Positions 2,354 to 60,213 are shown, numbered from the stretch's first letter. The stretch is DNA of 64,000 bases from Candidatus Moranbacteria bacterium GW2011_GWE2_35_2- (GCA_000990585.1 LBQD01000003.1:15504-79503); one strand, 5' to 3'. Numbers and translations are program-made. Notes: generated from the letters alone by a model not told the origin.

Positions 2354-2389
2354 ATCATTGAAAATTGTTTAGAAATTTAAAATTGAAAA

Positions 2390-5300: not shown

Positions 5301-7606
5301 TTCGCGCCTACACCAGCCTTGCCAACGCCGAAACCGGAACGGAAAATTTGGCAATTGACGCGGATTTGCGGAATTTTGACACTGGCAACCGCGACCTTGC
5401 TTCAAACAGCGAGCAATGGAATATTGCGTGCTATGCTAATGGGACGACGGCGGATACGGTTGAGGTGACGATTAGCGGCTGGACAACTGCGGCGCAGAAT
5501 TATATCAAAATTTATACTCCGTATTTATCGATTGAAGTCGGAACGAGCCAGAGGCATCAAGGGGTTTGGGATGAAGAGAAGTACATCCATTTAAATGAAA
5601 TCAATAGCACGGCTGTTTCTAATACACGGATTGACGGTTTACAGATATATAGATCCGGTGATGACGGGGGTTATTACGTGCGTGGAATAAATTCCGGTCC
5701 GAAAGCGGAGATTAGTAATAATATTATTAAAGCCAACTTAACCGGTTCTCAGGTTCATATCGGTATTTCTGAAGGGTATGCCGGCGTGAATAAAATATTT
5801 AATAATATTATTTATGATTTTAATGGTAATGCTGGAAATGAGTATGGAATTTATATTACCGGTGGAACGAATTATGTATATAATAATACAATATATAACT
5901 GTGAATATGGTATAAGTCAACAATATAGTGGTACGATTTTAGTAGCTAAAAATAATATTATAAAAGGTTCTGGTAATGTCAATGCTTATGTTGGAACTTT
6001 TACTAATTCTGATTACAACGCCACGGATGGAACAGATGTGGGTGATGGAGGAGTGCATAGCAAGATTTCCCAAACATTTTCTTTTGTTGATGAAGCCAAT
6101 GATGATTTCCATCTCTCCCCATCCGACACCGCTGCCCGCAACTCCGGCGCGGATCTTTCTCAGGATTATAATTTGCCGATTATATCCGATATTGACGGAC
6201 ATACACGACCCGCCTCCGCCATAGGCTCTGGCGTGGCGATGGACATCGGCGCCGATGAATCCGCCACTCCGATTTACCGCTCCATCGCTCCCAGTATGTC
6301 AACTTATCTTGACCGCGGAGTGGATGAATCTGGAACCGACCTTTCCATCTCCGGCACGACAATGACTTTGGAAAACGCCGCTCCGGACAACGTGGGCGTG
6401 GGCGACGTTATCCAATATGACAGCGACGGCAATTCATCCATTGATGCCATTGCTTTTATTTCCGCCCGAGCAAGCTCAACATCTTTCACTGTTCAAGCCC
6501 GCGACGGCTCACAACCGGTTGCCGTGACCAACGATCAGGATTGGCAAATCTTCCGCGCCTACACCACGCTGGACAACGCCGAAGGCGGAGCGGAAAACAC
6601 CGCCAACATCGACGACGATGTGGACGATTTTGACATCTCAGTCAGCCGAGCCGACGGCAAAGATATCTACGCCAGCAACGAACAATGGAACATCGCGGCG
6701 TATGCGAATGGAACAACGGCGGATACAGCGGCGGTGACGATTAGCGGTTGGACAACTTATCCGACGAATTATATCAAAATTTATACTCCGGTTTCAGCGA
6801 GTGAAGTCGGGGTGAGTCAGAGGCATGAGGGGAAGTGGGATGATGGGAAGTATAATATGGTAGTAAATAATAATACGGCTTTTACAAATCAAGAAGATTT
6901 CTTCAGAGTTGATGGATTGCAAGTGGAGGTAATAAATCCTTCAGCTAACAGTCAGAATTGTTTGAACTTTACAGGACTAACAACAGGAGGAAAAATATAT
7001 GTCAGCAATAATATTCTGCGAGGTCATTCATCCGAAACTTATAATCAAAGAGGAATTTTTTATTATAGTACTATGCAAAGTGTAGATTTTTATATTTATA
7101 ATAATATCGTATATGATTTCTTGAATAATTCATCAAGTTATGGTTTTTATTTAGGAGGAACTATTAGTAATTGGTATGTATATAATAATACAGTCTATAA
7201 TTGTTATTATGGCCTTCTTGCTTTAGCAGGGGCGGATCCTTACTATTTTAATAATATTGTTCAAAATTGTACGGATGGATTCGGTTCTACGAGAGATGCT
7301 TCTTCTGATTTCAATATTTCCAATACATCTCAAGCAGACGCTGATTCAGTTAATGCCACCTTCAACGGATATAAAACAGTTTCCTTTATTGATGAATTTA
7401 ATGACAATTTCCACCTTGCTTCATATGATACGGCGGCGAAGGGGAATGGGGTGGATTTGTCGGGCGACAGCTACCTACCGTTTTCAACTGACGTCGACGG
7501 AGACACTCGCGTTCGTTGGGACATCGGCGCCGATGAATTCGGAGCGACCCAATCAATAAAATTCCGCGGAGATGTGAAAACGAGAGGGGATGTGAAGATA
7601 CGGTGA
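2390..7606 (+). CDS. Giant secreted surface protein (1738 aa) made of four tandem ~430-aa right-handed beta-helix (pectate-lyase-like/PbH1) modules
   Basis: Signal peptide MKIKNAMPKLKLTILFLAFIFLPTIAHG. There are four repeats of [WNIAAYA..ADT.AVTI.GWTT...NYIKIYTP...SQRH.G.WD..KY — NN-rich beta-helix rungs YVYNNT.YNC — DFHL.S.DTAA.N.G — WDIGA.E — IYRS.AP]. The DFHL...DIGAxE ending is typical of Beta_helix (PF13229-type) domains. Confidence 0.85.
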   Translation: MKIKNAMPKLKLTILFLAFIFLPTIAHGATEFISVIDPDNGSGTDYTSLSAWEAANQVDLTAATTLVIAGSLTRGTIADGTPITQTTSGATAVCVHHTETQMLISTLSGTPNATDTWFPTVDGSDATNAWTPTDAGDSAIAIAKCRSTSGTADTTAVTVDGWTTSADNYIKIWTDPSENYRHQGKWDEGKYRLEVPQISGGGSGIRILEEYVWIDGLQIKRVITTEAGQACVAVGGASGEIKISNNVCEIKNNTTYYEYGIYKYTLSSSATYKIWNNVIYGVVDTDNNSGSGMYLAAVSPVAENTYVYNNTVVGSYYGIAKSGGTCISKNNIAYNNTIDYSGTFDSSSTNNLSKDATAPPYNTYYTNTSVIFADETNQDFHLDSADTAARNQGAILYDSGDDANLNFTTDIDNNARLDSAGTWDIGADEGITKVYRSVGPSATAAIATGATYGNVEVKPVYVSGSTTNIADYVATFWSDLPINVGVGDALQYDDDDDGDIDASDSIVFITKRIDASHFSVRTASGTAPASTLAPDSNWSIFRSYTSLFNAEAGDENDSIDDDLEAFESWSGGKDLQTSQEQWNIAAYAGQGGVADTVAVAIDGWTTTADSYIKVYTPTRSDEVGVSQRHSGVWDATKYNLSTGTGVASVDLRENYTVFDGLQITNSGTASTDNDILVAGYISFTNVKNSIIKGGYNGIYHSVSNIIYGGNKFYGNIIYETYYSGIRIYLSGATPLSSYVYNNTVYNCNASNTAWRGGIETLNADVVKNNISMENGNLDFVNANGQSYNISSDATAVGTGSLASQTLSNIAFVSTTSGIGTDLSNDPYIPFNTDIDSACLRKDKQSRVSNGGDDSCYTRPKGTNWDIGAHELITKIYRSVAPDADGTLEALTTGASNAMTIASSTATFATALADNIGVGDAIQYDADGDGDIDASDSIVFISGRTDSTHFTVKTASGTVPTAVSADTDWSLFRAYTSLANAETGTENLAIDADLRNFDTGNRDLASNSEQWNIACYANGTTADTVEVTISGWTTAAQNYIKIYTPYLSIEVGTSQRHQGVWDEEKYIHLNEINSTAVSNTRIDGLQIYRSGDDGGYYVRGINSGPKAEISNNIIKANLTGSQVHIGISEGYAGVNKIFNNIIYDFNGNAGNEYGIYITGGTNYVYNNTIYNCEYGISQQYSGTILVAKNNIIKGSGNVNAYVGTFTNSDYNATDGTDVGDGGVHSKISQTFSFVDEANDDFHLSPSDTAARNSGADLSQDYNLPIISDIDGHTRPASAIGSGVAMDIGADESATPIYRSIAPSMSTYLDRGVDESGTDLSISGTTMTLENAAPDNVGVGDVIQYDSDGNSSIDAIAFISARASSTSFTVQARDGSQPVAVTNDQDWQIFRAYTTLDNAEGGAENTANIDDDVDDFDISVSRADGKDIYASNEQWNIAAYANGTTADTAAVTISGWTTYPTNYIKIYTPVSASEVGVSQRHEGKWDDGKYNMVVNNNTAFTNQEDFFRVDGLQVEVINPSANSQNCLNFTGLTTGGKIYVSNNILRGHSSETYNQRGIFYYSTMQSVDFYIYNNIVYDFLNNSSSYGFYLGGTISNWYVYNNTVYNCYYGLLALAGADPYYFNNIVQNCTDGFGSTRDASSDFNISNTSQADADSVNATFNGYKTVSFIDEFNDNFHLASYDTAAKGNGVDLSGDSYLPFSTDVDGDTRVRWDIGADEFGATQSIKFRGDVKTRGDVKIR

Positions 7607-8656: not shown

Positions 8657-8757
8657 TAGCTGGCTCGGAATCGGAAATGAAACTTCCGATGTCAATTCTG
8701 ACGGAGTTGTGAATACGAGGGATTTGGGAATAATGATGAGCGGATGGGGAGAGTAGC
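8657..8757 (+). pseudogene. Orphan 3'-end fragment of a beta-helix/dockerin surface-protein gene
   Basis: ctggctcggaatcggaaatgaaacttccgatgtcaatt(c/t)(c/t)gacggagttgtgaatacgagggatttggg... is near-identical to 18703-18808 (the C-terminus of the 17319-18809 protein, ...LGIGNETSDVNSDGVVNTRDLG.MMSGW). Here it sits directly after the unrelated NTase gene. Confidence 0.8.
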
Positions 8758-8783
8758 TTATTTAAATGACAAATTTCCAATTA

Positions 8784-16905: not shown

Positions 16906-18809
16906 ATGAATATAATAATTTTACTAAAACATAAGCTAAGTATATTTTTAGTTAGTTGTATATTTATTTATTTGGGATCGGTAGGTGTGTCGGCTGCCAG
17001 TTTTCCTGTTCTATTATTTTCCGATCTCACCGACGCTCCTGTTTCCGGCTGGGAAGGTTCGCCAACCAAAGGAGCAGCCATATCCATTTGGGGAAGAAAT
17101 CTTGGAACAGAAAGAGGTTCTTCCTATGTAACCATAGGAGGAGTCAATCTTACCAATGACAGTGATTATGCCGAATGGGGAGCGACAACTAACCCAACAA
17201 CTGCCAGCGGACAACAAAGAATAACTTTCTGGCTCAATTCTTCACTTTTTACACAAGAAATACTGGAAATATTTATTTTGTCAGTACGACAGGGAATGAT
17301 TCAAATGACGGGCTTAGTGTGGCGAGTGCTTGGACCACTTTTGGAAAGGCTCGTGAAACTGTTGTTGCAGGAGATGTTGTGTATTTTAAATCTGGAATAT
17401 GGACAGCTTATGATCATGGTTCAACGTGGGCCAATGCTGTGCTCTATTTTAGGACAACTTCCGGTGTTTCTAATCATAACAACGGGACATTAAATAATAG
17501 TATTGCTTTTTCTTCGTATCCCGGAGAGGTTGCGCAAATGTGTAATGGAAATAATGCCGATGGCGGAAATGCAACCAGTGGTTTTTATCGACATGGTGAT
17601 AGCGTGCAAGATCGCCTTGAATACTGGACCTTATCGAAGTTTAAAGTTGTAGCGTGGCATTATGGTTTCAAGTGGTCAAATATAGATTTAACCTATGATA
17701 ATAATCTTCGTATAATCGGTTGGGATGCCACAACAACCATTCCAAGAACGGATATAAATACCCCGGAATCTATTGGCGGACAAATAATGTCGCAAAACGG
17801 AGATCAGGATGATATTTATATTCTCGGAAATTATATGCACCATTCCGGATTGTCTTCAGAAGAAGATGAAGATAATTTTGGTTATAAAGTTCAATCAATA
17901 TATATTAGCGGATTTAACGGACAATATTCAAATATACATATAGGACATAATGATTTTGCTCATAACAGCGGAAATTTGCAGGTTTATGCGCACAATTCTT
18001 CTGATATTATTGATGATATTTATATTTATGATAATTGGTTTCATGATGGCGGAACAACGGGAATGGTTTTAAATGGCGGTGATGGATTAACTGAATATTC
18101 TTTTATTACGACGGCTTATGTTTATAATAATATTTTTTCAAATAATCTTAGTTATGCTGCCAAATTAACTGATGGGTCGACAGGAAGCCATGGGGGCACA
18201 TTTTATTTTTATAATAATACATGCTACAACAATAGTGATGCGGAAATTTTTAGTCCCAATCCTGCGGCATTGTATGTTGTAAATAATATCTTTCAAACAT
18301 CGGCGTTGGTTTATTTTTCTTATTCTCCGGGAGATGATTCTGGAAATTTTGGTTCTCATAATCTTTTTTATGGTTCTGTTGGTGCTATTCCAAGCTGGTC
18401 AACTAATAATATTATTATTAACCCTCTTTTCACCTCTCCTTCCACTAATGATTTCACTCTCCAATCAACTTCCCCCGCTATCAATGCAGGCACAACCCTC
18501 GCTTCGGTTCCCAACGACTTTCTCGGAGTCTCCCGTCCCCAAGGGATATCCTATGACATCGGAGCTTTTGAATATGTTAGCGCAGCCGAAGAAACCTGCA
18601 CCGACAACATCCAAAACCAAGACGAAACTGGAATCGATTGCGGAGGAGTATGTGAGGCTTGCGTCGTTCCGATAACTTATGGATTAAGCAACTTCATCTC
18701 CGCCATCACCAACTGGCTCGGAATCGGAAATGAAACTTCCGATGTCAATTCCGACGGAGTTGTGAATACGAGGGATTTGGGGGTGATGATGAGTGGGTGG
18801 TCAAATTAA
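16906..18809 (+). pseudogene. Secreted right-handed beta-helix protein with a Cys-rich motif and a dockerin-like C-terminal tail, interrupted by a -1 frameshift at a T5 tract
   Basis: A signal peptide ORF (16906-) in frame 1 runs into junk after ~17250. Frame 3 opens at 17193 and continues NTGNIYFVSTTGNDSNDGLSVASAWTTFGKARETVVAGDVVYF (a typical beta-helix N-cap) to ...SRPQGISYDIGAFEY...CTDNIQNQDETGIDCGGVCEAC...DVNSDGVVNTRDLGVMMSGWSN. Inserting one T at 17246-17250 restores a single ORF. Confidence 0.75.
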
Positions 18810-18826
18810 GACGGAAAAGGTAAGGT

Positions 18827-20205: not shown

Positions 20206-20582
20206 GGATATTGCTAGTAAATAATTTGTTTGATTATTTAAAAGCCTTCGCAAAATTGAAATTTAAAACTCGGGATTGTCTGAAAAATACATCCCTTGGC
20301 ACAAAATAATCATTGTGCTTATGGATGTGTTTTTTGTTCGTAAATATTCGAGCGAAATTCAAGAACTTTGACAATTGAATCCTAGTTAATAAAACTAGCG
20401 TAAATAATCGCAATTTTTTGCGGTTAGTCCTTTGGCACGCCAAAGCTTCTTTGAAGCGTAGGCGGCCTATATCCGCCGTTGCTCTTATGAGCTATGGCGT
20501 GACGAAGTTAGAGTCTATTCAAAACTAAAGAATTTATTTTCTTTTTTATACGAATGAATAAGTATTTATACTTGTCATTCTT

Positions 20583-22123
<1,541 letters not shown>

Positions 22124-22136
<13 letters not shown>

Positions 22137-22432
22137 TAGGGAGATTTTGATAGAATTCTAGAGCATTACACATAAAGGCATACTAATTTCAAGTTAGTTG
22201 CTGTGGAATGTGGATTTTATCTGCTGGTCGTAACTTATGGATTTATCCGTAAGTAACAGCAACGGCAAAGCCAAGCCAAATAAAAATGGTAGTCGTATGT
22301 TTGTACAAGCATATGCATTGATTCAGTAATGAATCTCTCAAATAGGCTTCTAACCTAGGACTGACCGCAAAAGATTTTGATATTTACGAAAACTTTATTC
22401 TAAAACACCCGCAAGGGTGTTTTTTGTGTGGA
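22124..22432 (+). ncRNA. Structured 16S 3'-trailer element ending in a rho-independent terminator (copy 1 of 2)
   Basis: Conserved core cagcaacggcaaagccaagccaaataaaaatggtagtcgtatgtttgtacaagcatatgca plus GATTCA-GTAA-TGAATC hairpin, ending in the terminator aacacccGCAAgggtgttttttg. A second copy lies at 28937-29236. Confidence 0.55.
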
Positions 22433-22537
22433 AAAATTTGCTTCACTTTATTTCAAGAGAGTTAATGTGAATTGAACTTTATTAGAATTAAGTTTATAAT
22501 ATATTTACCTGATGAAGTTGAATAAATTACTAAAACA

Positions 22538-23824
22538 ATGAACAAAAAAAACATAATATTTAAATTATTAATATGGGCAGGCGGTTTAGTTGTCATTTTC
22601 TGCCTAATATGGACATTTGTATTATGGGGTACTCCCATATTTTCTTTTAGGGAAGCCTATTTGTCTTTGGTTAGCCGTGATTATGTTGGTGATTTACTTA
22701 TTAAGGAAGAAATTGAAAAAGGTAAAAAATATGATAGTAATCCTAATAATGTTTTTCTTCCAAAAATGGAATTAGACATTGGCATAAGTAATGAAAATTT
22801 TCCGAATATATTCAAGCAAAATGAATTTAAAAATCTTTTAGAGAGAAATCAAAAATATTTAGAAAAATTTGTTACCGTTCAATTGAGCGACGAAAACAAA
22901 AATGATTTATTTGTCCTTAACCCAGAAAATGGTTCTGTTTTGCAGATTTGGAATAATAGTAATATCGTCAATATCTATTCAGGAAAAGGAAATGTTCAGA
23001 ATTATGCTCTTGAAATCCCAGAATTTTCCAATAATGCGAAACTTTTTAATAATTCATTATCGTGTGCATGGTATTCGGAAGTAAATGTTTATTGTAAGAT
23101 GAGAGTTTTAGTTGATAAGCCAAAAGAATCTGTAAGGGAAGGATATGCAACAAGGGATGATGTGGTAGTTATGTATGCAATTGATGTTTCTAATGAAAGA
23201 GTTGTCTATCTAGGTAAGACACCATTTGATGTTAGGGGTAGATGGGATAAATTTCTGGCCTTTTACGATGGACATTACTTACCCTTAGTTGAAAATAAAA
23301 ATGAGATAACTATTTACGATACACGTCTTTCCGAAATTCAAACTGTAAAATTTTCTTATTCTGAGACTCCTCAATATTTCGAGTGTTCTTGGGTTGACGA
23401 TGAAAATATTTTCTGTGCCTTGTATTATCCAGAAAAGAAAAAACAAATAACAAAATTTTTTCTTTATGATGTATTAAGCAATAATTATATAAATCTTGGG
23501 GAAGAACAGTTTGACAATTCTGCTTATTCTGCCTCTGGTCTTGGACTCGGAAATTTTAAGGAAGGAAAATTAATTTCTCATCCTACAAAGAATGCACTTG
23601 TTTACGAGAATTGCATACGATGGGGAGCTGATTTAGGAACCACTATGGAAGGAGAGTGTAAAAGAAATAAAATTAGCCTTGTGAAAGATGAAAAAATAAT
23701 TACTTTAATTGAAAGTGAGACATCAAATAAAAGATATGCAATTGATAGCGATGAAGAAGGATTTATTTTATATGAAATTGCAAGTGATAATGAAATTGAA
23801 AGTAAGTATAGGCTTAAACTATGA
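22538..23824 (+). CDS. Hypothetical membrane-anchored protein (428 aa), very AT-rich
   Basis: N-terminal transmembrane segment. No recognisable motif. Confidence 0.5.
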   Translation: MNKKNIIFKLLIWAGGLVVIFCLIWTFVLWGTPIFSFREAYLSLVSRDYVGDLLIKEEIEKGKKYDSNPNNVFLPKMELDIGISNENFPNIFKQNEFKNLLERNQKYLEKFVTVQLSDENKNDLFVLNPENGSVLQIWNNSNIVNIYSGKGNVQNYALEIPEFSNNAKLFNNSLSCAWYSEVNVYCKMRVLVDKPKESVREGYATRDDVVVMYAIDVSNERVVYLGKTPFDVRGRWDKFLAFYDGHYLPLVENKNEITIYDTRLSEIQTVKFSYSETPQYFECSWVDDENIFCALYYPEKKKQITKFFLYDVLSNNYINLGEEQFDNSAYSASGLGLGNFKEGKLISHPTKNALVYENCIRWGADLGTTMEGECKRNKISLVKDEKIITLIESETSNKRYAIDSDEEGFILYEIASDNEIESKYRLKL

Positions 23825-23964
23825 TAAAAATCTGTTTTTTTCAAGACACATTAAGGGTTTAACGGAGTTAAGTAATTATGTGGATGGTAAATAAAATAGC
23901 TCAAGAAATAAAATTTTAACGATATGGCAATAATGGCTGAAATTGGTGGTAAATTATTTTAAAT

Positions 23965-24621
23965 ATGGATAACATAAAAGCAATAATATTTGATATGGAC
24001 GGAGTAATTGTAGCCTCCGAACCTATCCACGAAAAAGCGGAAGCAGAAACTTGCCGTGAGTTCGGTATGGAAGTTCCCAAAAAAGAATGGGACGGTTTTA
24101 GGGGTAAAAAGCTGGAGGATATCTTCTCTTATGTCAGTCAAAAATATGGAACAGGAAACGAACCCATTGAAAAAATGATCCAGCGCAAGATTGAGTTATA
24201 TCTTTCGTATGCTTTGCGAGATATGCAATTAGTGGAGGGCGCGTATGAATTTTTACAGGAATTAAAGAAAAGTCAAAAATATCGCTATGCCCTTACAACT
24301 TCAGGAAGAAAAATTCAGCAAGATAAAATTCTGGCAAAGTTCAATCTGGCTGATTTTTTTGACATTATGATTACGGCAGACGATGTTAATAACGGGAAAC
24401 CACATCCGGAGCCATATATGATTACAGTCAAAAAACTAAACGAGCAATCAAGCGAATGTTTGGTAATAGAAGATTCGGATAATGGTATTCTTTCCGCTAA
24501 ATCGGCTGGTTGTCAGGCGTGTGGCATCACGACAACTTTTACCAAGGAACGCTTGGAATCTGTTGGTGCGGATATGGTGGTTTCTAGTTTCTCTGAATTA
24601 TCAAAAGTTTTGTTTGAATAA
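23965..24621 (+). CDS. HAD-IA family hydrolase (beta-phosphoglucomutase/phosphatase-like)
   Basis: IIFDMDGVIV motif I, the T/S motif II, K and the DD motifs (EDSDNG). Confidence 0.85.
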   Translation: MDNIKAIIFDMDGVIVASEPIHEKAEAETCREFGMEVPKKEWDGFRGKKLEDIFSYVSQKYGTGNEPIEKMIQRKIELYLSYALRDMQLVEGAYEFLQELKKSQKYRYALTTSGRKIQQDKILAKFNLADFFDIMITADDVNNGKPHPEPYMITVKKLNEQSSECLVIEDSDNGILSAKSAGCQACGITTTFTKERLESVGADMVVSSFSELSKVLFE

Positions 24622-24641
24622 TAAAAATTAAACAAATAGTT

Positions 24642-24743
24642 ATGGAAATATCAGACTTATTAAACCAGAGCAGACAAATTTGGGGCAAACACAAAAATTA
24701 ACCCTCTCGCAAATTATCGTCAGAATGGGGAAAGTTTTTGACT
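24642..24743 (+). pseudogene. Truncated duplicate of the 5' end of the MazG-like gene at 27705
   Basis: atggaaatatcagacttattaaaccagagcagacaaatttggggcaaacacaaaaattaaccctctcgcaaattatcgtcagaatggggaaagtttttg is ~90% identical to 27705-27803. A 1-nt indel gives MEISDLLNQSRQIWGKHKN* and a premature stop. Confidence 0.75.
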
Positions 24744-24956
24744 TCGTGTGCCACGAAGGTAATGTGTTGTTGCCTTAAGAATTAAGCGACACAATATGAA
24801 CAAAAAGAAATTCCTCTCTTTTGAAAAAGTTTACAGAAGCGGGCTGACGAACTTGTCTGATGATGAGGTAGGTATATGCCGGACATCAATGAAATCAGAT
24901 TTTTGTAGTATTAAAATATGGATGGGAATTTACCAAAAAAGATAAGGAATAACAAA

Positions 24957-26027
24957 TTATTCAGAGAAATAATTATTTACCGCAAACTCGAATTGTTGGA
25001 GGAATATTTCTTTTATATATGAAATATTATTTTGTTCGTAAAATAATATCATAGCCTTTTTATATTCTACAGAGTCTATATTTCGATATGAAAGCATAGC
25101 CTTGTTGCTGGCATAGAGGATGGCATTGGCGATAATGCGCGAGGTGCGCTTGTTGCCGTCTTCAAATGGTTGTATATAGGCAATCATAACCAAAACAACA
25201 AAAGCCTTTATAAAAGGATTATTTACTTTCAAAAGGGTCTTTTCCAGTTTTTTCATAGCCGTGTCAATTTCATCTCTTTTCGGCAATGGTCTGTAAATCG
25301 TTCCGGTTATTCCAACCGGATGATTTCGAAAGTCTTTTCTGATATCTATGCCTTCGGTCAGCAGTTCGTGGATTTTTTTGATTTTATCAAGGCTAATATT
25401 TTTGAAATAATCTCTATTGTTCAAAATAAAATCAAGCGCTTTTTTGTGATTAAGTATCATTTGCGCTTCTGTTTTATTTTTTCCTTCGGCGAAACGCATT
25501 TCTTTGATAAGCGCTTCAGTTTCCAAAAGAGTGTAGGTATTTCCTTCGATTTCAGATGACTTCCATGATAATTCAATAATCAGGCGCTCCCATTCTTTTT
25601 TCAAAATCGCCGGACTTTCTTTGCTTAATTTATTTTCTGTTTGAGTATATTTTTCATTGGTTGCATCCAGCTTCTCCAATTCTTCTTTCGAAAAAATGTC
25701 ATCGTCCAGAATGGAAAATATATCATCTCTAAATGATGGACTGGCTTTTCTTTCTGAAAAGGGCAGGGAAAAGTATTTTTCCGTGTCAATTTTCTCAAGA
25801 GATAGGTATTTTTTTGTTATTTCATATATTACCGATCTTCCCGCTCCCTTTTTTTTAAGGATTCTATTTTTTTCTAAATATGACAGATCGCGAACAACTG
25901 TTAGCCGTGAAACATTAAAACTTTTTGCGATAACGAAAAAAACATCTTTTGTCTGAAAAGATTTTTTCTCTTTTGCAAAATCAAGAATGAATTGTTGCCG
26001 CTTGTTTAAATCTGGATATATTGGCAT
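24957..26027 (-). CDS. Fic/DOC family protein with an N-terminal winged-HTH and a degenerate Fic motif
   Basis: The C-terminus carries IQPFEDGNKRTSR where the canonical motif is HPFx(D/E)GNGRxxR: the catalytic His is replaced by Gln, and GNGR by GNKR. The N-terminal ~70 aa is a DNA-binding-like wHTH. Confidence 0.75.
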   Translation of the reverse strand: MPIYPDLNKRQQFILDFAKEKKSFQTKDVFFVIAKSFNVSRLTVVRDLSYLEKNRILKKKGAGRSVIYEITKKYLSLEKIDTEKYFSLPFSERKASPSFRDDIFSILDDDIFSKEELEKLDATNEKYTQTENKLSKESPAILKKEWERLIIELSWKSSEIEGNTYTLLETEALIKEMRFAEGKNKTEAQMILNHKKALDFILNNRDYFKNISLDKIKKIHELLTEGIDIRKDFRNHPVGITGTIYRPLPKRDEIDTAMKKLEKTLLKVNNPFIKAFVVLVMIAYIQPFEDGNKRTSRIIANAILYASNKAMLSYRNIDSVEYKKAMILFYEQNNISYIKEIFLQQFEFAVNNYFSE

Positions 26028-26445
26028 AATTGTATCATTTTATTGAATAATTACATCGTAATTGTATCATTTATGATACAAAAGTCAAATTAGTAGGCTT
26101 AATAATGATACAAAAAACGGATTGATAAGGCTTTATTGCGCAGCATTGTTTTTGTTTTGAAGAATGAAAAACACTATTTTTTTTGTTATCTAACGTGTAT
26201 TATAGCACACCTTTATCAAGGCGGAAAATTGGGTTATACTGAAAATATGAAATTGTTGCTAACTTCAACGGGATTAACAAATGAAAACATAAGAAATTTC
26301 TTTATTTCTCAATTTGACAGGTTGATGTTGAGGCTTTCAAAGAAAAAAGAAAAGGCGAGCCAGTAATTGAATTAACCGATGACCAAGCTATCTTTGTGGG
26401 AGGGGATAATTATAAATTTGTAGGGGATTTAGAAGAAATAAAATT

Positions 26446-27027
26446 ATGAACATTTGTATTTTTGGCGACAGTATAACCGAGGGATACTATGATGAGGAAA
26501 AAAATGGTTGGGTCAATCGCCTAAAAGCTATTTTCAGCGATGATGAAATATGCAACCTTGGAATTTCAGGAGATTCAACTGAAGATTTGCTCAAGCGGTT
26601 TGATGCGGATATTAAAGATAAAAATCCAGAGATGATTATCTTTGCGATTGGCACAAACGATTCTGTATATTTACCAGCTGAAAAACGAAATTATGTTGAT
26701 TTTAATAAATTCAATGAAAATCTAAAGACCCTCATAGAGAAATCAAGACAGTTCACGAGCAATATCGTTTTTGTCGGATTAACGCCAGTTGATGAAAGTT
26801 TGACCAAGCCTATTCCTTGGGAAATTGAAATGCATTACACGAATGAAGAGATAGGGAAATATAACAAAGCCATCAGGCAGATTTGCGAAGACGAAAAACT
26901 GAAGTTTATTGATATTTTTGATGATTTGGCGAGTATCAATTATAAAGAAATGCTTTCCGATGGTCTGCACCCCAATGCAGTGGGTCACGAATGGATGGCG
27001 AATAAAATAGCTAAAGAATTAAAATAA
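26446..27027 (+). CDS. SGNH/GDSL-family hydrolase (lipase/acylhydrolase-like)
   Basis: Block I GDSITEG, GTND, and DGLHPN (the catalytic D..H). Confidence 0.85.
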   Translation: MNICIFGDSITEGYYDEEKNGWVNRLKAIFSDDEICNLGISGDSTEDLLKRFDADIKDKNPEMIIFAIGTNDSVYLPAEKRNYVDFNKFNENLKTLIEKSRQFTSNIVFVGLTPVDESLTKPIPWEIEMHYTNEEIGKYNKAIRQICEDEKLKFIDIFDDLASINYKEMLSDGLHPNAVGHEWMANKIAKELK

Positions 27028-27033
27028 TAAATT

Positions 27034-27393
27034 ATGGAATTCAAGCATTTTGAAACAAGTTTAGAAAAAGAGAATGAGTATCCAAAGCTGGTCAGGGATA
27101 AAATCCCTGAAGTTGTTCAAGGGAAAACAGGGAAAGAAGTAAAAACGAGGATTATGGAAGATGAAGAATATCGGAAATACTTATTGAAAAAAGTTGAAGA
27201 GGAGGCACACGAATTGGCAAATGCTGAGGGAATAGAACATATAACTGAAGAGTTGGCTGATGTGATGGAGCTAATAGACACTATTTTGGAAGTTAATGGA
27301 CTGGATTTAGAAACAATACGCAAGGCACAAAAAGCTAAAGCCGAGATAAGAGGAGGCTTCAAGGGTAAGATTTTAATGTTGGAAAAAGTATAA
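27034..27393 (+). CDS. MazG-like / PRA-PH-type nucleoside triphosphate pyrophosphohydrolase
   Basis: YPKLVRDKIPE...EEAHELA...EELADVMELIDTILEVNGLDLE...RGGF is the all-alpha NTP pyrophosphatase signature. Confidence 0.7.
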   Translation: MEFKHFETSLEKENEYPKLVRDKIPEVVQGKTGKEVKTRIMEDEEYRKYLLKKVEEEAHELANAEGIEHITEELADVMELIDTILEVNGLDLETIRKAQKAKAEIRGGFKGKILMLEKV

Positions 27394-27397
27394 TCTT

Positions 27398-27700
27398 ATG
27401 TTTAAAGAATACATCGCATATTTAAAAGACAACCCAAAAGGTTACTGGTTCAAACGAAAACTCTACGGCTGGGGATGGACGCCAACGAAATGGCAGGGAT
27501 GGTGTGTCATATTTCTCTATATCTTACTCATCCTGAGTCTCGTGCTTACCAGAGAAGAGGCTATCCCAGGAAATCCTGATTCAGGAAGTAATTTCTTGAC
27601 ATTCGCACTACCAATCATTGTTTTGACTATCCTTCTCATCGTTGTTGCCTATAAAAAAGGAGAAAAACCACGTTGGCAGTGGGGTAAACCAAAAAAATAA
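27398..27700 (+). CDS. Small hypothetical membrane protein, Trp-rich
   Basis: Two predicted transmembrane segments. No recognisable motif. Confidence 0.4.
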   Translation: MFKEYIAYLKDNPKGYWFKRKLYGWGWTPTKWQGWCVIFLYILLILSLVLTREEAIPGNPDSGSNFLTFALPIIVLTILLIVVAYKKGEKPRWQWGKPKK

Positions 27701-27704
27701 AATT

Positions 27705-27983
27705 ATGGAAATTTCAAACTTATTAAAACAAACTAGACAAATTTGGGGCAAACAAAAATTAACCCTCTCGCAAATTATCGTCAGAATGGGGAAAGTTTTT
27801 GGTGATATTTGTCGTTGGGAGAGGGATGCATCAAAGGACAAGAAAATTCATACAAAGCAGGAATTAAAAAAGGAAATGGGCAATATGATTCTCTCGTCTA
27901 TCCGCTGGTGTGATGACCTTGGATTTAATCCTGAGGATTGCATTAAGGAAGCAATGAGTGCCCAGAAGAAGTTTGAGAAATAA
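27705..27983 (+). CDS. MazG-family small nucleotide pyrophosphohydrolase
   Basis: LSQIIVRMGKVFGDICRWERD...KEMGNMILSSIRWCDDLGFNPEDCIKEA matches the MazG EExxE/D helical core. Start chosen at the ATG at 27705 with an RBS-like aaaataaaatt upstream. Confidence 0.65.
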   Translation: MEISNLLKQTRQIWGKQKLTLSQIIVRMGKVFGDICRWERDASKDKKIHTKQELKKEMGNMILSSIRWCDDLGFNPEDCIKEAMSAQKKFEK

Positions 27984-28394
27984 ATGAAGAAAGCCTTTCA
28001 AAAAACACTTGAAACATTGAAAATATCCCTGCCAATAATCATTGGTATTTTAATGCTGATTAGCATTATCAATCCTCTGTTTGAAAAATACTATCCCAAG
28101 ATATTCACTGGCAACTATTTTATTGACCCTTTGATTGGGGCTGTGGCTGGTAGCATTTCTTTTGGTATTCCAATTGCCAGTTATGTGACTGGTGGGGAAT
28201 TGTTGAAAGAAGGAGTGAGTCTTTTGGCGGTCACTGCGTTTATCTTGGCTTGGAGCACAGTTGGGGTTATGTTTATGCCTTTGGAAATTTCCAATTTGGG
28301 CAAAAAGTTTGCTATTTGGAGAAACTCACTGAATTTCATCAGTTCAATCATCATTGCTATCCTAACCATCATTACCTTGAAAATTATCCTATGA
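27984..28394 (+). CDS. Permease subunit 1 of a split DUF318/COG0701-type membrane permease
   Basis: Four transmembrane segments. Its stop overlaps the start of the next gene in an ATGA arrangement. It lies next to arsR-arsM. Confidence 0.5.
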   Translation: MKKAFQKTLETLKISLPIIIGILMLISIINPLFEKYYPKIFTGNYFIDPLIGAVAGSISFGIPIASYVTGGELLKEGVSLLAVTAFILAWSTVGVMFMPLEISNLGKKFAIWRNSLNFISSIIIAILTIITLKIIL

Positions 28395-28915
28395 TAGATA
28401 AAATAAAAAAACTACCAGGTGGAGTCAAATTTATGCTAAGTATGGCAGTGGTGTATTTGATTGCGATTTTTGTAGATAAATCCTTTGTATTAAGTTCATT
28501 CAATAAATTTGTCCAAACTTTGATTGAATTGTTGCCAATCCTTGTGTTGGTTTTTGGGGTCATCTTTATCGTAAATATATTTCTGAACCCAGAAACAATC
28601 AAAAAGCACTTGGGACACGATTCAGGATTGAAAGGCTGGTTTTATGCCAGTTTAGGTTCAGTGTTAATAGTCAGCCCTCCATACGTAATTTTTCCGTTAC
28701 TCGGTCAATTGAAAAAACACGGAATGAAATACTCCCTGATGGCAGTTTTTCTTGGCAACAGGAATGTCCAACCAGCCTTTTTGCCAGTGATGGTGTATTA
28801 TTTCGGTTTGCCATTTACGGTGGTGATTTCTGTCTATATTTTAATCTTTTCAGTTTTAAGCGGTATTGTTATGGGGAGGGTAATGGAAGAGAATGATTTG
28901 GTTAAAATGGCTTAA
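28391..28915 (+). CDS. Permease subunit 2 of the split DUF318/COG0701-type permease
   Basis: MIDKIKKLPGG... with 4–5 transmembrane segments. ATGA overlap with the upstream subunit. Confidence 0.5.
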   Translation: MIDKIKKLPGGVKFMLSMAVVYLIAIFVDKSFVLSSFNKFVQTLIELLPILVLVFGVIFIVNIFLNPETIKKHLGHDSGLKGWFYASLGSVLIVSPPYVIFPLLGQLKKHGMKYSLMAVFLGNRNVQPAFLPVMVYYFGLPFTVVISVYILIFSVLSGIVMGRVMEENDLVKMA

Positions 28916-28936
28916 CTTCTCTGATTCCTCCCACGA

Positions 28937-29236
28937 ATCACCTCCTTTCTAGGGAGATTTTGATACTAACTGAGAGTATCACACACAAAAGTCGCTTTGA
29001 TTCAAATTAAAGCGATGTGGGGTATAGTTAGTATCCGCTGGTCGTAATGTGGAATTTATTCTGCATAACAGCAACGGCAAAGCCAAGCCAAATAAAAATG
29101 GTAGTCGTATGTTTGTACAAGCATATGCAGTTGATTCAGCAATGAATCGCTCGGATAGACTCTTATAGGACTAATCGCAATAGGTTGTGATAACATATAC
29201 TTTTTGCAAAGAACACCTTAAATGGTGTTTTTTGCG
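28937..29236 (+). ncRNA. Second copy of the 16S 3'-trailer structured element, without a 16S gene
   Basis: atcacctcctttctagggagattttgata, then a variable ~60 nt, then the near-identical core cagcaacggcaaagccaagccaaataaaaatggtagtcgtatgtttgtacaagcatatgcagttgattcaGCAAtgaatc. It ends in the terminator aacaccTTAAATggtgttttttg. Confidence 0.55.
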
Positions 29237-29463
29237 TTGGGAAAAATCGGATTATACTCCGCTCCACTTTTAAAATTATGGCTTATTTTAACTAGGTATT
29301 TTAATCTAGAAATCGTTTCCAAACTATTAGGCTATTACGTGCAAAAAAATCAAGGCAGGGGAGACCCTGTTTTTTGAGTGGAAAGATTTAACTATCTTTC
29401 GCTTTGCTTGACCATAATATCTATCAGGCGTAGTATTCTAATATAAATTAGAATAGTTTTGTT

Positions 29464-29772
29464 ATGGAATTCAGATGTTGTGCTAAAAATTCTAAGGAAC
29501 AAAAAGATGTCAGTCAGACATATGCTTTTTTGCGAGCCATTGCCGACCCCAATAGATTAAAGATTCTTTGTTTCCTTCAGAAAGGTTCAAAATGTGTCTG
29601 TGAAATCGTGCCAGCAATAGGGATATCAGATAAGTTGGCTTCGCATCATCTCAAGCAACTCAAGAAAGCGGAACTCATAAAAGACCAGCGCCAAGGCAAT
29701 TTCATCTATTATTCTCTGAATCGAAAAGCCATTAAAAATTATAAATCGTTATTTAATCAAATAATCAAATAA
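29464..29772 (+). CDS. arsR: ArsR/SmtB-family metalloregulator
   Basis: LRAIADPNRLKILCFLQKGSKCVCEI...LASHHLKQLKKAELI: an HTH with the CVC metal-binding site. Confidence 0.85.
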   Translation: MEFRCCAKNSKEQKDVSQTYAFLRAIADPNRLKILCFLQKGSKCVCEIVPAIGISDKLASHHLKQLKKAELIKDQRQGNFIYYSLNRKAIKNYKSLFNQIIK

Positions 29773-29774
29773 AT

Positions 29775-30527
29775 ATGCAAGACGAAAAAATCAAAGAAGT
29801 GGTCAAAAAATCATACGCTAAAATTGCATCTCAAAATAGCGGATGCGGTTGTAGTTGTAACTGTGGAACGTATGCGGATAATGAACAAATTGCCAAGAGC
29901 ATCGGTTATTCAGATGAAGAAATAAATACAGTTTCCGAGGCTAATTTGGGGCTGGGTTGCGGTAATCCTATTGCGATGGGTGAAATAAAAGAGGGGGATA
30001 TCATTTTGGATTTAGGTTCCGGGGCTGGATTTGATTGTTTTTTAGCTTCTAAAAAAGTGGGTGAAACTGGCAGAGTGATTGGTGTGGATATGACCGAAGA
30101 GATGATTGCCAAAGCTGAGGAGAACGCTGAAAAATATGGTTATAAAAATGTAGAATTCAAGCTAGGGGAAATTGAAAATCTGCCAATTGAGGACAATTCA
30201 ATTGATGTGGCAATCAGTAATTGCGTAATTAATCTTGTTCCCGACAAGGAAAAAGCGTTTAGAGAAATTTACCGAGTTTTGAAAAAAGATGGAAAAATTT
30301 ATCTCTCAGACATTGTTCTTTTGGATAATATTGCCGATGAGCTAAAAAGCGATGAAGAACTATTGGCTGGTTGCGTTGGAGGGGCATTGCTCCGAGATGA
30401 ATATATGGAAATTATTAAAAAGGCTGGATTTGAAGTGAAAATTTTGTCAGAGGATAAGGACATCAGCAAAAGACAATATCAGGGAATACCGCTGGAAAGT
30501 TTGAAAATAGAAGCGATAAAGAAGTGA
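29775..30527 (+). CDS. arsM: Arsenite S-adenosylmethionine methyltransferase
   Basis: Conserved Cys cluster (CGCSCNCG ... LGLGCGNP) and the SAM motif ILDLGSGAGFD. Confidence 0.8.
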   Translation: MQDEKIKEVVKKSYAKIASQNSGCGCSCNCGTYADNEQIAKSIGYSDEEINTVSEANLGLGCGNPIAMGEIKEGDIILDLGSGAGFDCFLASKKVGETGRVIGVDMTEEMIAKAEENAEKYGYKNVEFKLGEIENLPIEDNSIDVAISNCVINLVPDKEKAFREIYRVLKKDGKIYLSDIVLLDNIADELKSDEELLAGCVGGALLRDEYMEIIKKAGFEVKILSEDKDISKRQYQGIPLESLKIEAIKK

Positions 30528-30537
30528 ATTAAAGTAT

Positions 30538-31644
30538 ATGAGTATGAGAATTATAAAAAATGAAGACTTGGGATGGGATGATTTTTTTGAATCCAAAAGA
30601 GCCGAAATGGGATTGGGCGATTTTTCTGTTGCCAGAGTTATTGCTGAATATAAGGGTGCGTATAAGGTCAAAAATGAAAACGGTGAATTTTTGGCAAAAA
30701 TTACTGGTAAGCAAATGCTTGAGGCAGAATCCAGGGAAGATTATCCTGCCGTTGGCGATTGGGTTGCTATGTCTGAGCTTGATAATGAACAGGCGGTAAT
30801 CCAGGCGGTTTTACCAAGAAAATCAACAATCAAAAGGAGATTTGGCGACAAAAATAAAAGTGGCGAAAAAAATGATGTCCAAATTATCGCCACGAATGTT
30901 GGCATTGCTTTTATTGTGGAGTCTGTCGGCAGGGATTATAATGTAAACCGTCTTGAAAGATATTTGGTTATTGCCAAAGATGCAAGCATAAAACCTGTCA
31001 TAGTGATCAATAAAACGGACTTGATTTTGGATGAAGAGTCGGATTCCAAATTAGCGGAAATAAAAAACAGACTGGAAGACGTTGATGTGATTTTTACCAG
31101 CGCCGTAAATAATGAAGGCTTGGATAAATTGAAAGCTTATATCCAAAAGGGTGAAACCTGCTGTTTTCTCGGTTCCTCCGGTGTGGGAAAATCATCACTT
31201 ATCAATAAACTGCTAGGAAAAGATGATATCAAGACCGGGGATGTCAGTTCGTATTCAGACAGAGGGAAACACATTACTACAAACAGGGAGATGTATTTTT
31301 TGGAGAGTGGCGGAATCGTGATAGACAATCCGGGAATCAGAGAGGTTGGCATAGCGGATGCTAATGCAGGAATAAATAGCATATTTGATGAAATAGAAAT
31401 TTTCGCCAAAAAATGCAGATATGTCGATTGCACGCATATTCATGAACCGGATTGTGAAGTTTTGAAAGCATTAAAAGGCGGGGCATTGGATGAAGATAAA
31501 TATTCCAATTACATAAATTTAAAAAAAGAAACCGAGTATTTTGAAATGAGCCGGTCAGAAAAAAGAAAAAAAAATCGGGATTTCGGAAAATTTCTCAAGA
31601 GAGCGAAAAAAGATTTTAGTAAATTCGGACATAAAGATTTTTAA
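30538..31644 (+). CDS. rsgA: Ribosome small-subunit-dependent GTPase A (circularly permuted GTPase with a zinc finger)
   Basis: The permuted order G4 (NKTD), G1 (GSSGVGKSS), G3 (DNPG), then [14 protein letters not shown]. Confidence 0.9.
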
Positions 31645-31976
31645 TTGGCAATGCGTCGCTTTGCTTTTGGGAATAATCACTCCGTTTTGTACTTGCTCGG
31701 CTATTCCGCTATTTCTTGGGTTTCTGGAAGTGGGTGTGCCGCTCGGAATAAATTTTTCATTCTTGGTTGCTTCACCACCGAATCGGAGTGTGGTTTGCGG
31801 TTATGCGGGCAGACTTTTTGGCGGAGTACGCTTCGTTTGATAAATGGTACGTTGTGCCTTTGGCGGTTCTAATTGGAATAATACTATGTTCAATTTGATT
31901 TTATGATATATTTTTCTGTACAAAGGTATTTCTTTTGTGATATAATAAAAATAATATTAAAATTAATTCTAAAAAA

Positions 31977-60053: not shown

Positions 60054-60091
60054 AAACAACCTCTTTTGTGAGATTGTTTTTATTTTATGTG

Positions 60092-60165: not shown

Positions 60166-60213
60166 TTAAAAACGAAAATGCTGCGCCGCGTGATGAGCGT
60201 AGCGAATTTTACG

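What the first reader, a model, noticed from the sequence alone, without database searches (positions are those of the whole stretch)
28937..29236. Second copy of the structured 16S trailer RNA element, with compensatory hairpin changes, far from any rRNA
The ~300 nt that follow the 16S (22124-22432) recur at 28937-29236, starting exactly at the last 14 nt of the 16S (ATCACCTCCTTTCT…gggagattttgata). A 75-nt core is near-identical: cagcaacggcaaagccaagccaaataaaaatggtagtcgtatgtttgtacaagcatatgca. A GATTCA-GNRA-TGAATC hairpin keeps its stem while the tetraloop changes GTAA→GCAA. An upstream hairpin changes both arms (cttatGGATttATCCgtaag vs atgtGGAATttATTCtgcat). Both copies end in an intrinsic terminator. 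Stems are conserved while loops vary, which argues for a functional structured RNA. Candidates are an rRNA processing/trailer element or a small ncRNA that was duplicated, here sitting upstream of arsR.
Basis: seen in the sequence. Interest (0 to 1): 0.65.

Follow-up and report, generated by a model that had tools for sequence, protein, structure and literature searches.

The report
Orphan 16S tail-and-trailer repeat
The second copy is real: it is a detached duplicate of the last 14 bases of the 16S rRNA gene plus its structured trailer. It sits at the far edge of a 6.5-kb block of accessory genes just downstream of the only 16S gene in the window, and related Moranbacteria carry one to about a dozen such copies in the same region.

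Summary
Observation confirmed. Window 28937-29247 repeats 22124-22437 (77% over 320 nt, E 1e-58). The repeat starts exactly at the last 14 nt of the 16S, and a 64-nt block is 100% identical. The same DNA appears in at least four independent assemblies, so it is not a chimera.

Copy 1 is the working 16S trailer: its 3' part pairs over 44 nt with the 16S leader. Copy 2 has no 16S. It begins 22 nt after the stop codon of an intact permease gene, and it lies only 6.8 kb downstream of the same 16S on the same strand, so it is not "far from any rRNA".

Related Moranbacteria have the same orphans, all co-oriented and all starting at CACCTCC. Most are preceded by a conserved non-16S motif, TCTCCCACGAAT. 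They separate small accessory or defence gene blocks downstream of the 16S (13 segments in L147, 10 in L016). Other relatives show the uninterrupted state, 16S-trailer-rsgA or 16S-trailer-recombinase.

The fold is real (27 pairs with changes on both sides). The 64-nt core, however, is identical only within this genome and 40-71% identical elsewhere.

Best reading: copy 2 is a recombination seam or duplicated attachment-type site of an insertion at the 16S 3' end, now probably acting as a terminator, and not a separate sRNA gene. The recombination mechanism is inferred.

The parts
20388..20487 (+). 16S leader segments complementary to the trailer: 20388-20431 pairs with 22357-22399, and 20475-20487 pairs with 22254-22266. 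This is the pre-16S processing stem.
   Evidence: Inverted repeats I1, I4 and I17. blastn 44 nt at 80%. The nhmmer trailer profile hits 20389-20520 on the minus strand. Duplex energy -41.6 kcal/mol with copy 1 and -33.5 with copy 2.
20580..22135 (+). The only 16S rRNA gene in the window. It is not linked to a 23S.
   Evidence: Rfam RF00177, 1327 bits, full length; no LSU match anywhere in the window.
22124..22432 (+). Copy 1: the last 14 nt of the 16S plus the working trailer. It contains an anti-SD/GGGAG hairpin (22129-22143), a long hairpin, the 64-nt core (22254-22317), a GNRA hairpin, the leader-pairing segment (22357-22399) and a terminator (22404-22425).
22433..28918 (.). Accessory gene block between the two copies: 428-aa membrane-anchored protein, HAD hydrolase, Fic (minus strand), GDSL lipase, 119-aa, 100-aa, 92-aa and 136-aa proteins, and a 174-aa half-size YraQ/ArsP_1 permease. 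It contains no recombinase. An internal duplicated fragment links 24630-24740 and 27691-27801.
   Evidence: Pfam. ORFs. tblastn with the L069 recombinase finds nothing in the window. Parts of the block sit at other positions in relatives. The permease is full length: its 80 homologues are 150-188 aa.
28919..28936 (+). Junction motif ctgattcctcccacgaat. It is not 16S sequence, but it is conserved in front of orphan copies in other species, with the consensus (a)TCTCCCACGAAT.
28937..29236 (+). Copy 2, the orphan. It contains the 16S-tail mimic (28937-28950), an anti-SD/GGGAG hairpin (28942-28956), a long hairpin (about 28962-29035), the core (29066-29129), a GATTCA-GCAA-TGAATC hairpin (29133-29148), the leader-complementary segment (29167-29191) and a terminator (29212-29233).
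   Evidence: It matches 58 of 59 consensus pairs.
29344..29390 (+). A second terminator-like remnant (ggcaggggagaccctgttttttgag). It resembles the 3' end of the orphan element in relative L012, and homology with L012 starts here.
29464..31644 (+). Genes downstream of copy 2: arsR (29464-29772), an SAM methyltransferase (29775-30527) and rsgA (30538-31644). rsgA is the gene that directly follows the genuine 16S trailer in relative L148.
   Evidence: Pfam. L148 16S-trailer-rsgA.

Best explanation
Copy 2 is an orphaned copy of the 16S 3' tail plus trailer. It marks the distal seam of a roughly 6.5-kb accessory gene block that lies between the single 16S gene and its downstream neighbours, arsR, a methyltransferase gene and rsgA.

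In this Moranbacteria clade the stretch downstream of the 16S is a hypervariable region. Small accessory, toxin-antitoxin and defence gene blocks are separated by co-oriented repeats, and each repeat is a version of the 16S tail plus trailer. The likely origin (inferred) is recombination at or near CACCTCC/TTTCTAGGGAG in the 16S tail. The 16S keeps, or is given, one functional trailer, and the other copy is left stranded at the far end of the inserted DNA, as happens with islands that insert into the 3' end of tRNA or tmRNA genes.

Shown here:
- a duplication with a sharp boundary at the 16S tail;
- the same boundary in many orphans from at least eight related populations;
- uninterrupted arrangements in other relatives;
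- co-orientation and clustering of the copies next to the 16S;
- recent sequence exchange between the two window copies.

Inferred:
- the event is site-specific rather than homologous;
- which of the two copies is the older one;
- copy 2 now serves mainly as the intrinsic terminator or insulator of the upstream permease operon, and as a substrate for further recombination.
For: 1. Boundary. Identity to the 16S starts at the same base in window copy 2 and in the full-tail orphans of L013, L016 (three copies), L018, L021 and L147, and also in L142/L143. What precedes it is never 16S: TCTCCCACGAAT in five genomes and CGCCGTCAAA in L142/L143.

2. Uninterrupted versus interrupted sites.
- L148 has a genuine 16S, its trailer and then rsgA without a break. 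L016, L147, L021, L013 and the window have an orphan upstream of rsgA with other genes in front of it.
- L069 has 16S-trailer-recombinase. L142 has more than 9.7 kb of defence-like genes, then an orphan, then the same recombinase. The L069 trailer and the L142 orphan are 77% identical across 350 nt, running into the gene.

3. Arrays. nhmmer finds 13 trailer-like segments over 15 kb after the 16S of L147 and 10 in the 11.4 kb of L016. All are on the 16S strand and sit between blocks of 1-3 genes (NTase/HepT, Fic, AbiEii, HEPN). The only reverse-strand hits are the 16S leaders.

4. Variable content. Window genes from the block occur elsewhere in relatives. The GDSL segment lies downstream of rsgA in L012, and the 100-aa gene is 89% identical in DNA to L013 over exactly the ORF.

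5. Split tails. Some tails read CACCTCC, then 18-55 nt, then TTTCTAGGGAG, and some elements have only the right half. This places breakpoints inside the tail.

6. Core identity. The 64-nt core is 100% identical only within this genome.

7. The gene in front of copy 2 is intact.

8. Copy 2 is not an artefact.
Against: - No recombinase is encoded in the window block. Pfam on its nine ORFs and tblastn of the window with the L069 recombinase found none.
- The recombinase next to the trailer in L069, L142 and L143 is so widely conserved (65-89% identity) that it may be a housekeeping Xer and not an island integrase.
- Elements also lie downstream of rsgA in L016, L021 and L147. A simple model in which everything inserts at the 16S tail cannot explain this without extra shuffling.
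- Copy 1 pairs better with the leader than copy 2 (-41.6 versus -33.5 kcal/mol), so copy 2 is not obviously the older, co-adapted trailer.
- A direct repeat flanking an insertion does not by itself tell which copy came in with the insertion.
- No uninterrupted site was found for this species itself.
- Orphans show no structural decay (55-58 of 59 pairs), which would also fit selection on the RNA.
Confidence: 0.6

Rival explanations
1. Copy 2 and its relatives are functional RNA modules in their own right. One version: a 3'-UTR or leader element that displays a 16S anti-Shine-Dalgarno mimic (CACCUCCUUU) in a hairpin loop closed by CUCCC/GGGAG. Another version: a decoy for the pre-16S leader or for 16S-maturation factors, which would regulate neighbouring genes such as rsgA (a 30S maturation GTPase) or the arsR operon.
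For: - The fold is conserved with strong covariation, and orphans keep 55-58 of 59 pairs.
- The orphan-specific TCTCCC...GGGAGA inverted repeat would place the anti-SD in a loop.
- The leader-complementary segment is retained in every orphan.
- An orphan or a true trailer sits upstream of rsgA in seven related populations.
Against: - Orphans also precede unrelated genes (a recombinase, Fic, unknown ORFs) and follow unrelated genes.
- Copy number ranges from 1 to 13 per locus among close relatives.
- A strong terminator separates copy 2 from arsR, and arsR and a methyltransferase lie between copy 2 and rsgA.
- The association with rsgA is explained by the 16S-trailer-rsgA gene order seen in L148.
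- The variable hairpins differ freely between copies.
- No Rfam match.
- No expression data are available.
Confidence: 0.15
2. The elements are a modular intergenic repeat family that carries a terminator, comparable to BOX, REP or BIME repeats. They spread by ordinary homologous recombination or duplication with neighbouring genes. In this view the 16S trailer is just one member or the source of the family, and the 16S tail is not a special target.
For: - The build is modular: tail, GGTCG box, variable hairpins, AGGACAACCGCAAAAG box and terminator, with module swapping between copies.
- Many partial copies lack the tail.
- Breakpoints between the window and L012 fall at the terminator end and not at the tail.
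- Patchy 100% blocks indicate recombination between copies.
Against: - Every full copy starts at the same base of the 16S tail.
- All copies are co-oriented with the 16S and cluster within about 15 kb of it. The 64-kb window has only the two copies, and L149, a 20-kb Moranbacteria-type locus elsewhere in a genome, has none on the forward strand.
- The core pattern was not found in representative genomes.
Confidence: 0.17
3. Copy 2 is the relic of a second rRNA operon whose 16S body was deleted.
For: It keeps the 16S tail, a complete trailer and a terminator.
Against: - No leader copy and no other rRNA fragment lie near it.
- The same 12-14-nt boundary recurs in many orphans, up to 13 elements per locus in relatives, preceded by a conserved non-rRNA motif.
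- An intact gene ends 22 nt upstream.
Confidence: 0.03
4. The duplicate is an assembly or binning artefact.
For: The source is a metagenome-assembled genome.
Against: An identical structure appears in at least four assemblies made from different samples and deposited by different sources, and 24 contigs carry it. The copies are only 77% identical, so they would not collapse or mis-join.
Confidence: 0.01

Closest known systems
Genomic islands and prophages integrated in the 3' end of tRNA or tmRNA genes (attL/attR with a replacement 3' end)
   Same: - A direct repeat starts inside the 3' end of a stable-RNA gene.
- One copy completes the gene and the other is stranded at the far end of accessory or defence genes.
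- Relatives show the uninterrupted site.
- Tandem arrays of displaced fragments occur.
   Different: - The target is the 16S rRNA gene.
- The repeat is about 300 nt and includes the whole structured trailer and terminator, at 77% identity, not a short exact core.
- The window block has no integrase.
- The blocks are very small (1-9 genes).
- Elements also occur beyond the presumed chromosomal flank (rsgA).
Integron cassette arrays (intI, attI, attC)
   Same: - Co-oriented arrays of small, often promoter-poor cassettes rich in toxin-antitoxin and unknown genes.
- The cassettes are separated by structured repeats that are conserved at their ends and variable in the middle.
- Cassette content is shuffled between close relatives.
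   Different: - No intI was identified.
- The repeats lack the RYYYAAC/GTTRRRY ends.
- The repeats contain intrinsic terminators and an rRNA-derived sequence.
- The array is anchored at a 16S gene and not at attI.
Bacterial pre-16S leader-trailer processing stem (RNase III substrate) and anti-SD-sequestering 3' extension
   Same: Copy 1 has exactly this. Copy 2 retains every module, including the GGGAG that pairs with the anti-SD and a 25-nt segment complementary to the leader.
   Different: Copy 2 is not attached to a 16S and has no leader of its own.
Modular intergenic repeats such as BOX, REP/BIME and Correia elements
   Same: Multi-copy, modular and hairpin-rich, located after genes, with possible effects on termination or mRNA stability.
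   Different: - Strictly co-oriented and clustered next to the 16S.
- No terminal inverted repeats and no target-site duplications.
- Derived from an rRNA tail plus trailer.

Membership tests
Pre-16S 3' trailer (processing stem with the leader) | Directly continues from the 3' end of a 16S gene | tested here: not met
   Copy 1 meets this (22136 follows the 16S). Copy 2 follows a permease gene, and only the last 14 nt of the 16S are present.
Pre-16S 3' trailer (processing stem with the leader) | Long complementarity to the 16S leader | tested here: inconclusive
   Copy 1 gives a 44-nt helix at -41.6 kcal/mol. Copy 2 gives about 25 bp at -33.5 kcal/mol with the same leader, acting in trans only. 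There is no leader copy near copy 2.
attL/attR of an element integrated in the 3' end of a stable-RNA gene | A direct repeat that begins inside the gene's 3' end and flanks accessory DNA | tested here: met
   22124 and 28937 both start at ATCACCTCCTTTCT, with a 29-nt exact stretch. 6.5 kb of accessory genes lie between them.
attL/attR of an element integrated in the 3' end of a stable-RNA gene | Integrase encoded within the element | tested here: not met
   Pfam finds no recombinase in the nine ORFs, and tblastn with the L069 recombinase finds nothing in the window. Relatives have tyrosine recombinases nearby (L013 at 4010-4921; L069, L142 and L143 right after the trailer).
attL/attR of an element integrated in the 3' end of a stable-RNA gene | Uninterrupted site in relatives | tested here: met
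   L148 has 16S-trailer-rsgA and L069 has 16S-trailer-recombinase. This was not found for the same species.
attL/attR of an element integrated in the 3' end of a stable-RNA gene | Excision or integration activity (circular form, precise polymorphism) | not testable with these tools
   This needs read-level data or an experiment.
Integron | IntI-type integrase next to the array | tested here: not met
   None in the window. The IntI-specific insertion was not examined in the recombinases of relatives.
Integron | attC sites with RYYYAAC ... GTTRRRY ends | tested here: not met
   Read directly from the sequence: the elements start with TCTCCCACGAAT-CACCTCCTTTCTAGGGAG and end in a terminator.
Any Rfam family | Covariance-model match | tested here: not met
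   The best E-value in 28800-29500 is 0.25, on an unrelated microRNA model. Nothing reaches a gathering score.
MITE or REP-like dispersed repeat | Dispersed copies in both orientations, with terminal inverted repeats | tested here: not met
   All hits are co-oriented with the 16S and clustered. The window has two copies and L149 has none on the forward strand.

The most novel reading that the evidence does not exclude
Moranbacteria (Candidate Phyla Radiation) use the 3' tail of their single 16S rRNA gene as a dedicated site-specific insertion point for small gene cassettes. Each incoming cassette carries a replacement tail plus trailer that must still pair with the resident 16S leader. Displaced trailers pile up as an integron-like array of accessory and defence genes, possibly driven by the conserved tyrosine recombinase that is encoded right after the trailer in some lineages.
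Probability: 0.3. Interest if true: 0.85.

Novelty: new variant of a known kind. Interest (0 to 1): 0.62.

Why it matters
If the 16S tail really is a recombination target, several things follow.

- It would be a case where an rRNA gene, and not a tRNA or tmRNA gene, anchors gene acquisition.
- It would show mobile DNA that has to supply a working rRNA-processing trailer.
- It would identify the main accessory and defence gene hotspot in a group of tiny-genome, uncultured bacteria.
- It would explain why assemblies of these genomes so often break just downstream of the 16S.
- It is a caution that ITS or trailer-like sequences in these genomes are not reliable markers of rRNA operon number.

Even on the conservative reading, the finding documents a lineage-wide, structured, rRNA-derived repeat family. 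I found no description of it in the searchable literature.

Tried and rejected
- **Genome-contig scan** with a 21-mer of the identical core: only seven unrelated chance hits.
My upstream-motif filter scored 115 of 120 matches as genuine 16S ends from many phyla, because AGGGAGA right after the 16S is common. Only L069 was useful. None of the other lineages showed a duplicated trailer.
- **Viral-contig scan**: three unrelated hits, with no phage or provirus attP.
- **Truncated arsP idea:** I suspected copy 2 had cut a permease gene. This is rejected, because the 174-aa protein is full length for its family. The ArsP_1-like piece after rsgA is a separate pseudogene remnant.
- **Integrase next to the 16S as proof of an island:** weakened. 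The L069 recombinase family is conserved at 65-89% identity across Moranbacteria and may be a housekeeping Xer.
- **Cis partners:** I looked for leader-like sequences that could pair with the orphans. There are none apart from the true 16S leaders.
- **Which copy is ancestral:** neither leader pairing nor hairpin types in relatives decided it.
- **Terminator scan:** the simple scan did not list the two main terminators. They are visible in the folds.
- **Literature:** searches found nothing on 16S-targeted insertion or on CPR cassette arrays.

Full report
**What is in the window**

Rfam finds one full-length bacterial 16S at 20580-22135 (+). There is no 23S in the window, and the only other RNA genes are tRNA-Ala and tRNA-Ile far away on the other strand. 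Protein names attached to identical sequences place the DNA in Candidatus Moranbacteria bacterium GW2011_GWE2_35_2, a Candidate Phyla Radiation genome from Rifle groundwater.

The roughly 300 nt after the 16S (copy 1) recur at 28937-29247 (copy 2). blastn gives 76.9% identity over 320 columns, E 8e-59 (alignment). Similarity starts exactly at ATCACCTCCTTTCT, the last 14 nt of the 16S, and ends a few bases past a terminator in both copies.

Identity between the copies is patchy:

| Segment (copy 1 coordinates) | Identity |
|---|---|
| Tail, 22124-22152 | 29/29 |
| Hairpin region, 22153-22253 | 57% |
| Core, 22254-22317 | 64/64 |
| GNRA hairpin, 22318-22340 | 87% |
| Leader-pairing segment, 22341-22400 | 67% |
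| Terminator, 22401-22432 | 73% |
| Flanks | about 36% (random) |

Shuffles never give two matches, and profile searches find no third copy in the 64 kb. The same DNA across both copies is present in two GenBank MAGs and in ENA assemblies of two different samples, and 24 contigs carry it. It is not an assembly chimera.

**What copy 1 is**

The 16S leader at 20388-20431 is complementary to 22357-22399 (44 nt, 80%), and 20475-20487 is complementary to 22254-22266. This is the classical leader-trailer helix of pre-16S RNA (established knowledge: the RNase III processing stem).

Directly after the 16S, GGGAG can pair with the anti-Shine-Dalgarno CUCC. That feature is widespread: 115 of 120 metagenome matches to CACCTCCTTTCTAGGGAGA have a 16S helix-45 motif just upstream and so look like genuine 16S ends, and they come from many phyla. 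Copy 1 is therefore an ordinary, working trailer with its own terminator.

**What copy 2 is not**

- It has no 16S body and no leader copy.
- It matches no Rfam family.
- It does not truncate a gene. It starts 22 nt after the stop codon of a 174-aa YraQ/ArsP_1 half-size permease, whose 80 homologues are all 150-188 aa.
- It is not far from an rRNA gene. It is 6.8 kb downstream of the same 16S, on the same strand.

Nine accessory-type genes lie between the copies: a 428-aa membrane-anchored protein, HAD, Fic, GDSL, small unknown proteins and the permease pair. arsR, a methyltransferase gene and rsgA follow copy 2.

**Relatives**

I used RsgA homologues and a recombinase to fetch contigs of related Moranbacteria.

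- Orphan copies of the 16S tail plus trailer, with no 16S in front, occur in L013 (8998-9260, 71-73% identical to copy 2), L012, L016, L018, L021, L142, L143 and L147.
- In every full-tail copy the similarity to the 16S starts at the same base, CACCTCC.
- What precedes it is never 16S. It is (a)TCTCCCACGAAT in the window (tTCCTCCCACGAAT), L013, L016 (twice), L018, L021 and L147, each time after a different upstream gene. It is CGCCGTCAAA in L142 and L143.
- L148 shows a genuine 16S end, its trailer and then rsgA without interruption.
- L069 shows a genuine 16S end (97% identical to the window's), its trailer and then a tyrosine recombinase. In L142 the same recombinase is preceded by an orphan that is 77% identical to the L069 trailer across 350 nt, and more than 9.7 kb of defence-like genes stand where the 16S would be.
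- L147 has the whole picture on one contig: a 16S, its true trailer, and then 13 trailer-like segments over 15 kb. All are on the 16S strand and separate blocks of 1-3 genes (NTase/HepT, two Fic genes, a cation-efflux protein, AbiEii), with rsgA in the middle. L016 has 10 segments in 11.4 kb.
- The only reverse-strand profile hits are the 16S leaders.
- Some tails are split (CACCTCC, then an 18-55-nt GC hairpin, then TTTCTAGGGAG), and some elements have only the right half.
- Gene content is shuffled. The window's GDSL segment lies downstream of rsgA in L012. The window's 100-aa gene is 89% identical in DNA to L013 over exactly the ORF. Window-L012 homology begins at a terminator remnant 97 nt after copy 2.

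**RNA structure**

On an alignment of two true trailers and five orphans, RNAalifold predicts a long three-part hairpin, a short hairpin and several small helices.

| Measure | Observed | Partners slid by 1-3 columns |
|---|---|---|
| Cells forming a standard pair | 92% | 37-44% |
| Pairs with changes on both sides | 27 | 5-13 |

None of 500 shuffles reached the observed values.

Two points limit what this shows. First, true trailers and orphans share this structure, and orphans fit it at least as well (55-58 of 59 pairs, against 48-50 for the true trailers; five of the seven rows are orphans, which biases the consensus). The covariation shows that trailers are structured, not that an orphan works as an independent RNA. 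Second, the 64-nt block that looked like a conserved core is identical only within this genome and 40-71% identical to the other species. That pattern points to recent exchange between the two copies (gene conversion or a shared crossover segment) rather than long-term constraint.

**Interpretation**

The simplest account that covers all of this has three parts. The stretch downstream of the single 16S is a hypervariable accessory region in this clade. Its seams are copies of the 16S tail plus trailer. Copy 2 is the seam at the far end of the one block present in this genome.

Several features resemble islands that integrate in the 3' end of tRNA or tmRNA genes and bring a replacement 3' end, and they also recall integron arrays:
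- the fixed start at CACCTCC;
- the conserved non-rRNA motif in front of it;
- the split tails;
- the co-orientation of all copies;
- the uninterrupted and interrupted arrangements in relatives.

On that model an incoming block would have to supply a trailer that still pairs with the resident leader. That would explain why the tail, the GGTCG box and the leader-complementary box are kept while the hairpins vary.

This mechanistic step is inferred, and several observations count against it:
- The window block has no recombinase.
- The recombinase next to the trailer in L069, L142 and L143 is conserved like a housekeeping gene.
- Elements also lie beyond rsgA.
- Copy 1 pairs better with the leader than copy 2 (-41.6 versus -33.5 kcal/mol).
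- A repeat-flanked insertion cannot by itself tell which copy is older.

A homologous-recombination repeat family and a functional-RNA role (an anti-SD mimic in a hairpin loop, or a leader decoy) remain open at lower probability. A relic second operon and an artefact are effectively excluded.

For the present-day function of copy 2, I commit to the intrinsic terminator and insulator of the upstream permease operon, plus a recombination substrate. This is inferred from its intact stem and T-run at 29212-29233 and from its position.

**Novelty**

No Rfam family matches. Five literature searches found nothing on insertion at 16S tails or on such arrays in CPR bacteria; the library is not exhaustive. 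I rate this a new variant of a known kind: island or cassette attachment at the 3' end of a stable-RNA gene, here a 16S with a full replacement trailer.

Noticed in passing
window 20580-22135 and 60091-60289: The 16S is not followed by a 23S or by spacer tRNAs. tRNA-Ala(TGC) and tRNA-Ile(GAT), the usual spacer tRNAs, sit together about 38 kb away on the opposite strand with no rRNA next to them.
   Followed up: no
window 21605-21775 and 2317-2411: The 16S carries an AT-rich insertion of about 135 nt, bracketed by a 19-nt inverted repeat (21605-21623 / 21757-21775). A similar AT-rich repeat occurs at 2317-2411 in inverted orientation (78% over 95 nt).
   Followed up: no
window about 21471 versus L001/L002 1948-2006: Other assemblies of the same population have about 57 extra bases inside the 16S at this point. 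This is either a population indel or an assembly difference within the 16S.
   Followed up: no
window 24630-24740 and 27691-27801: An 89% identical repeat (50 nt exact) covers the end of the 100-aa gene and the start of the 92-aa gene. The first copy is a truncated fragment after the HAD gene and next to the inverted Fic gene, which is a sign of rearrangement inside the block.
   Followed up: partly
window 31650-31900: A frameshifted remnant of a YraQ/ArsP_1-type permease (motif [24 protein letters not shown]) lies directly after rsgA. One public annotation calls it an 88-aa gene.
   Followed up: partly
window 1-7000; 1772-1822, 8708-8758, 18761-18811: There are large internal DNA repeats in the first 7 kb, probably repeated domains of big surface proteins. 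A conserved roughly 50-nt 3' coding motif (translates to ..VNTRDLG..MSGWGE) is shared by three separate genes.
   Followed up: no
L147 1299-1602 and 2580-3345; L148 176-826: Relatives carry group I introns in the 16S, one with a LAGLIDADG gene only 44 nt before the 16S 3' end. L148 has a LAGLIDADG ORF plus a group II intron domain just before the last roughly 130 nt of the 16S.
   Followed up: no
L069 (reverse strand), L142 10001-10933, L143 270-1202: A 310-aa tyrosine recombinase sits immediately after the 16S trailer or its orphan. Its homologues are 65-89% identical across Moranbacteria, and many lie on very short contigs, as expected for genes next to an assembly-breaking repeat.
   Followed up: partly
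L147, L016, L021 and L019 after element terminators; window 29245-29262: A further conserved box (GGAAACGAACTATTTCAAGGGAGATATTTGGAGTCCGCTCCGCT; window has ggattatactccgctccac) follows many element terminators, just ahead of the next gene's promoter-like sequence.
   Followed up: no
L022-L141 (metagenome hits): AGGGAGA directly 3' of the 16S, able to pair with the anti-Shine-Dalgarno, is found after genuine 16S genes of many unrelated phyla. It is often followed about 40-60 nt later by an AGGTCG box.
   Followed up: partly
L019/L020 start; L021 start; L143 start: Contigs of several related populations end inside or just before a trailer-like element upstream of rsgA or the recombinase (21 contigs for L019's protein). 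This suggests the repeat regularly breaks short-read assemblies.
   Followed up: no
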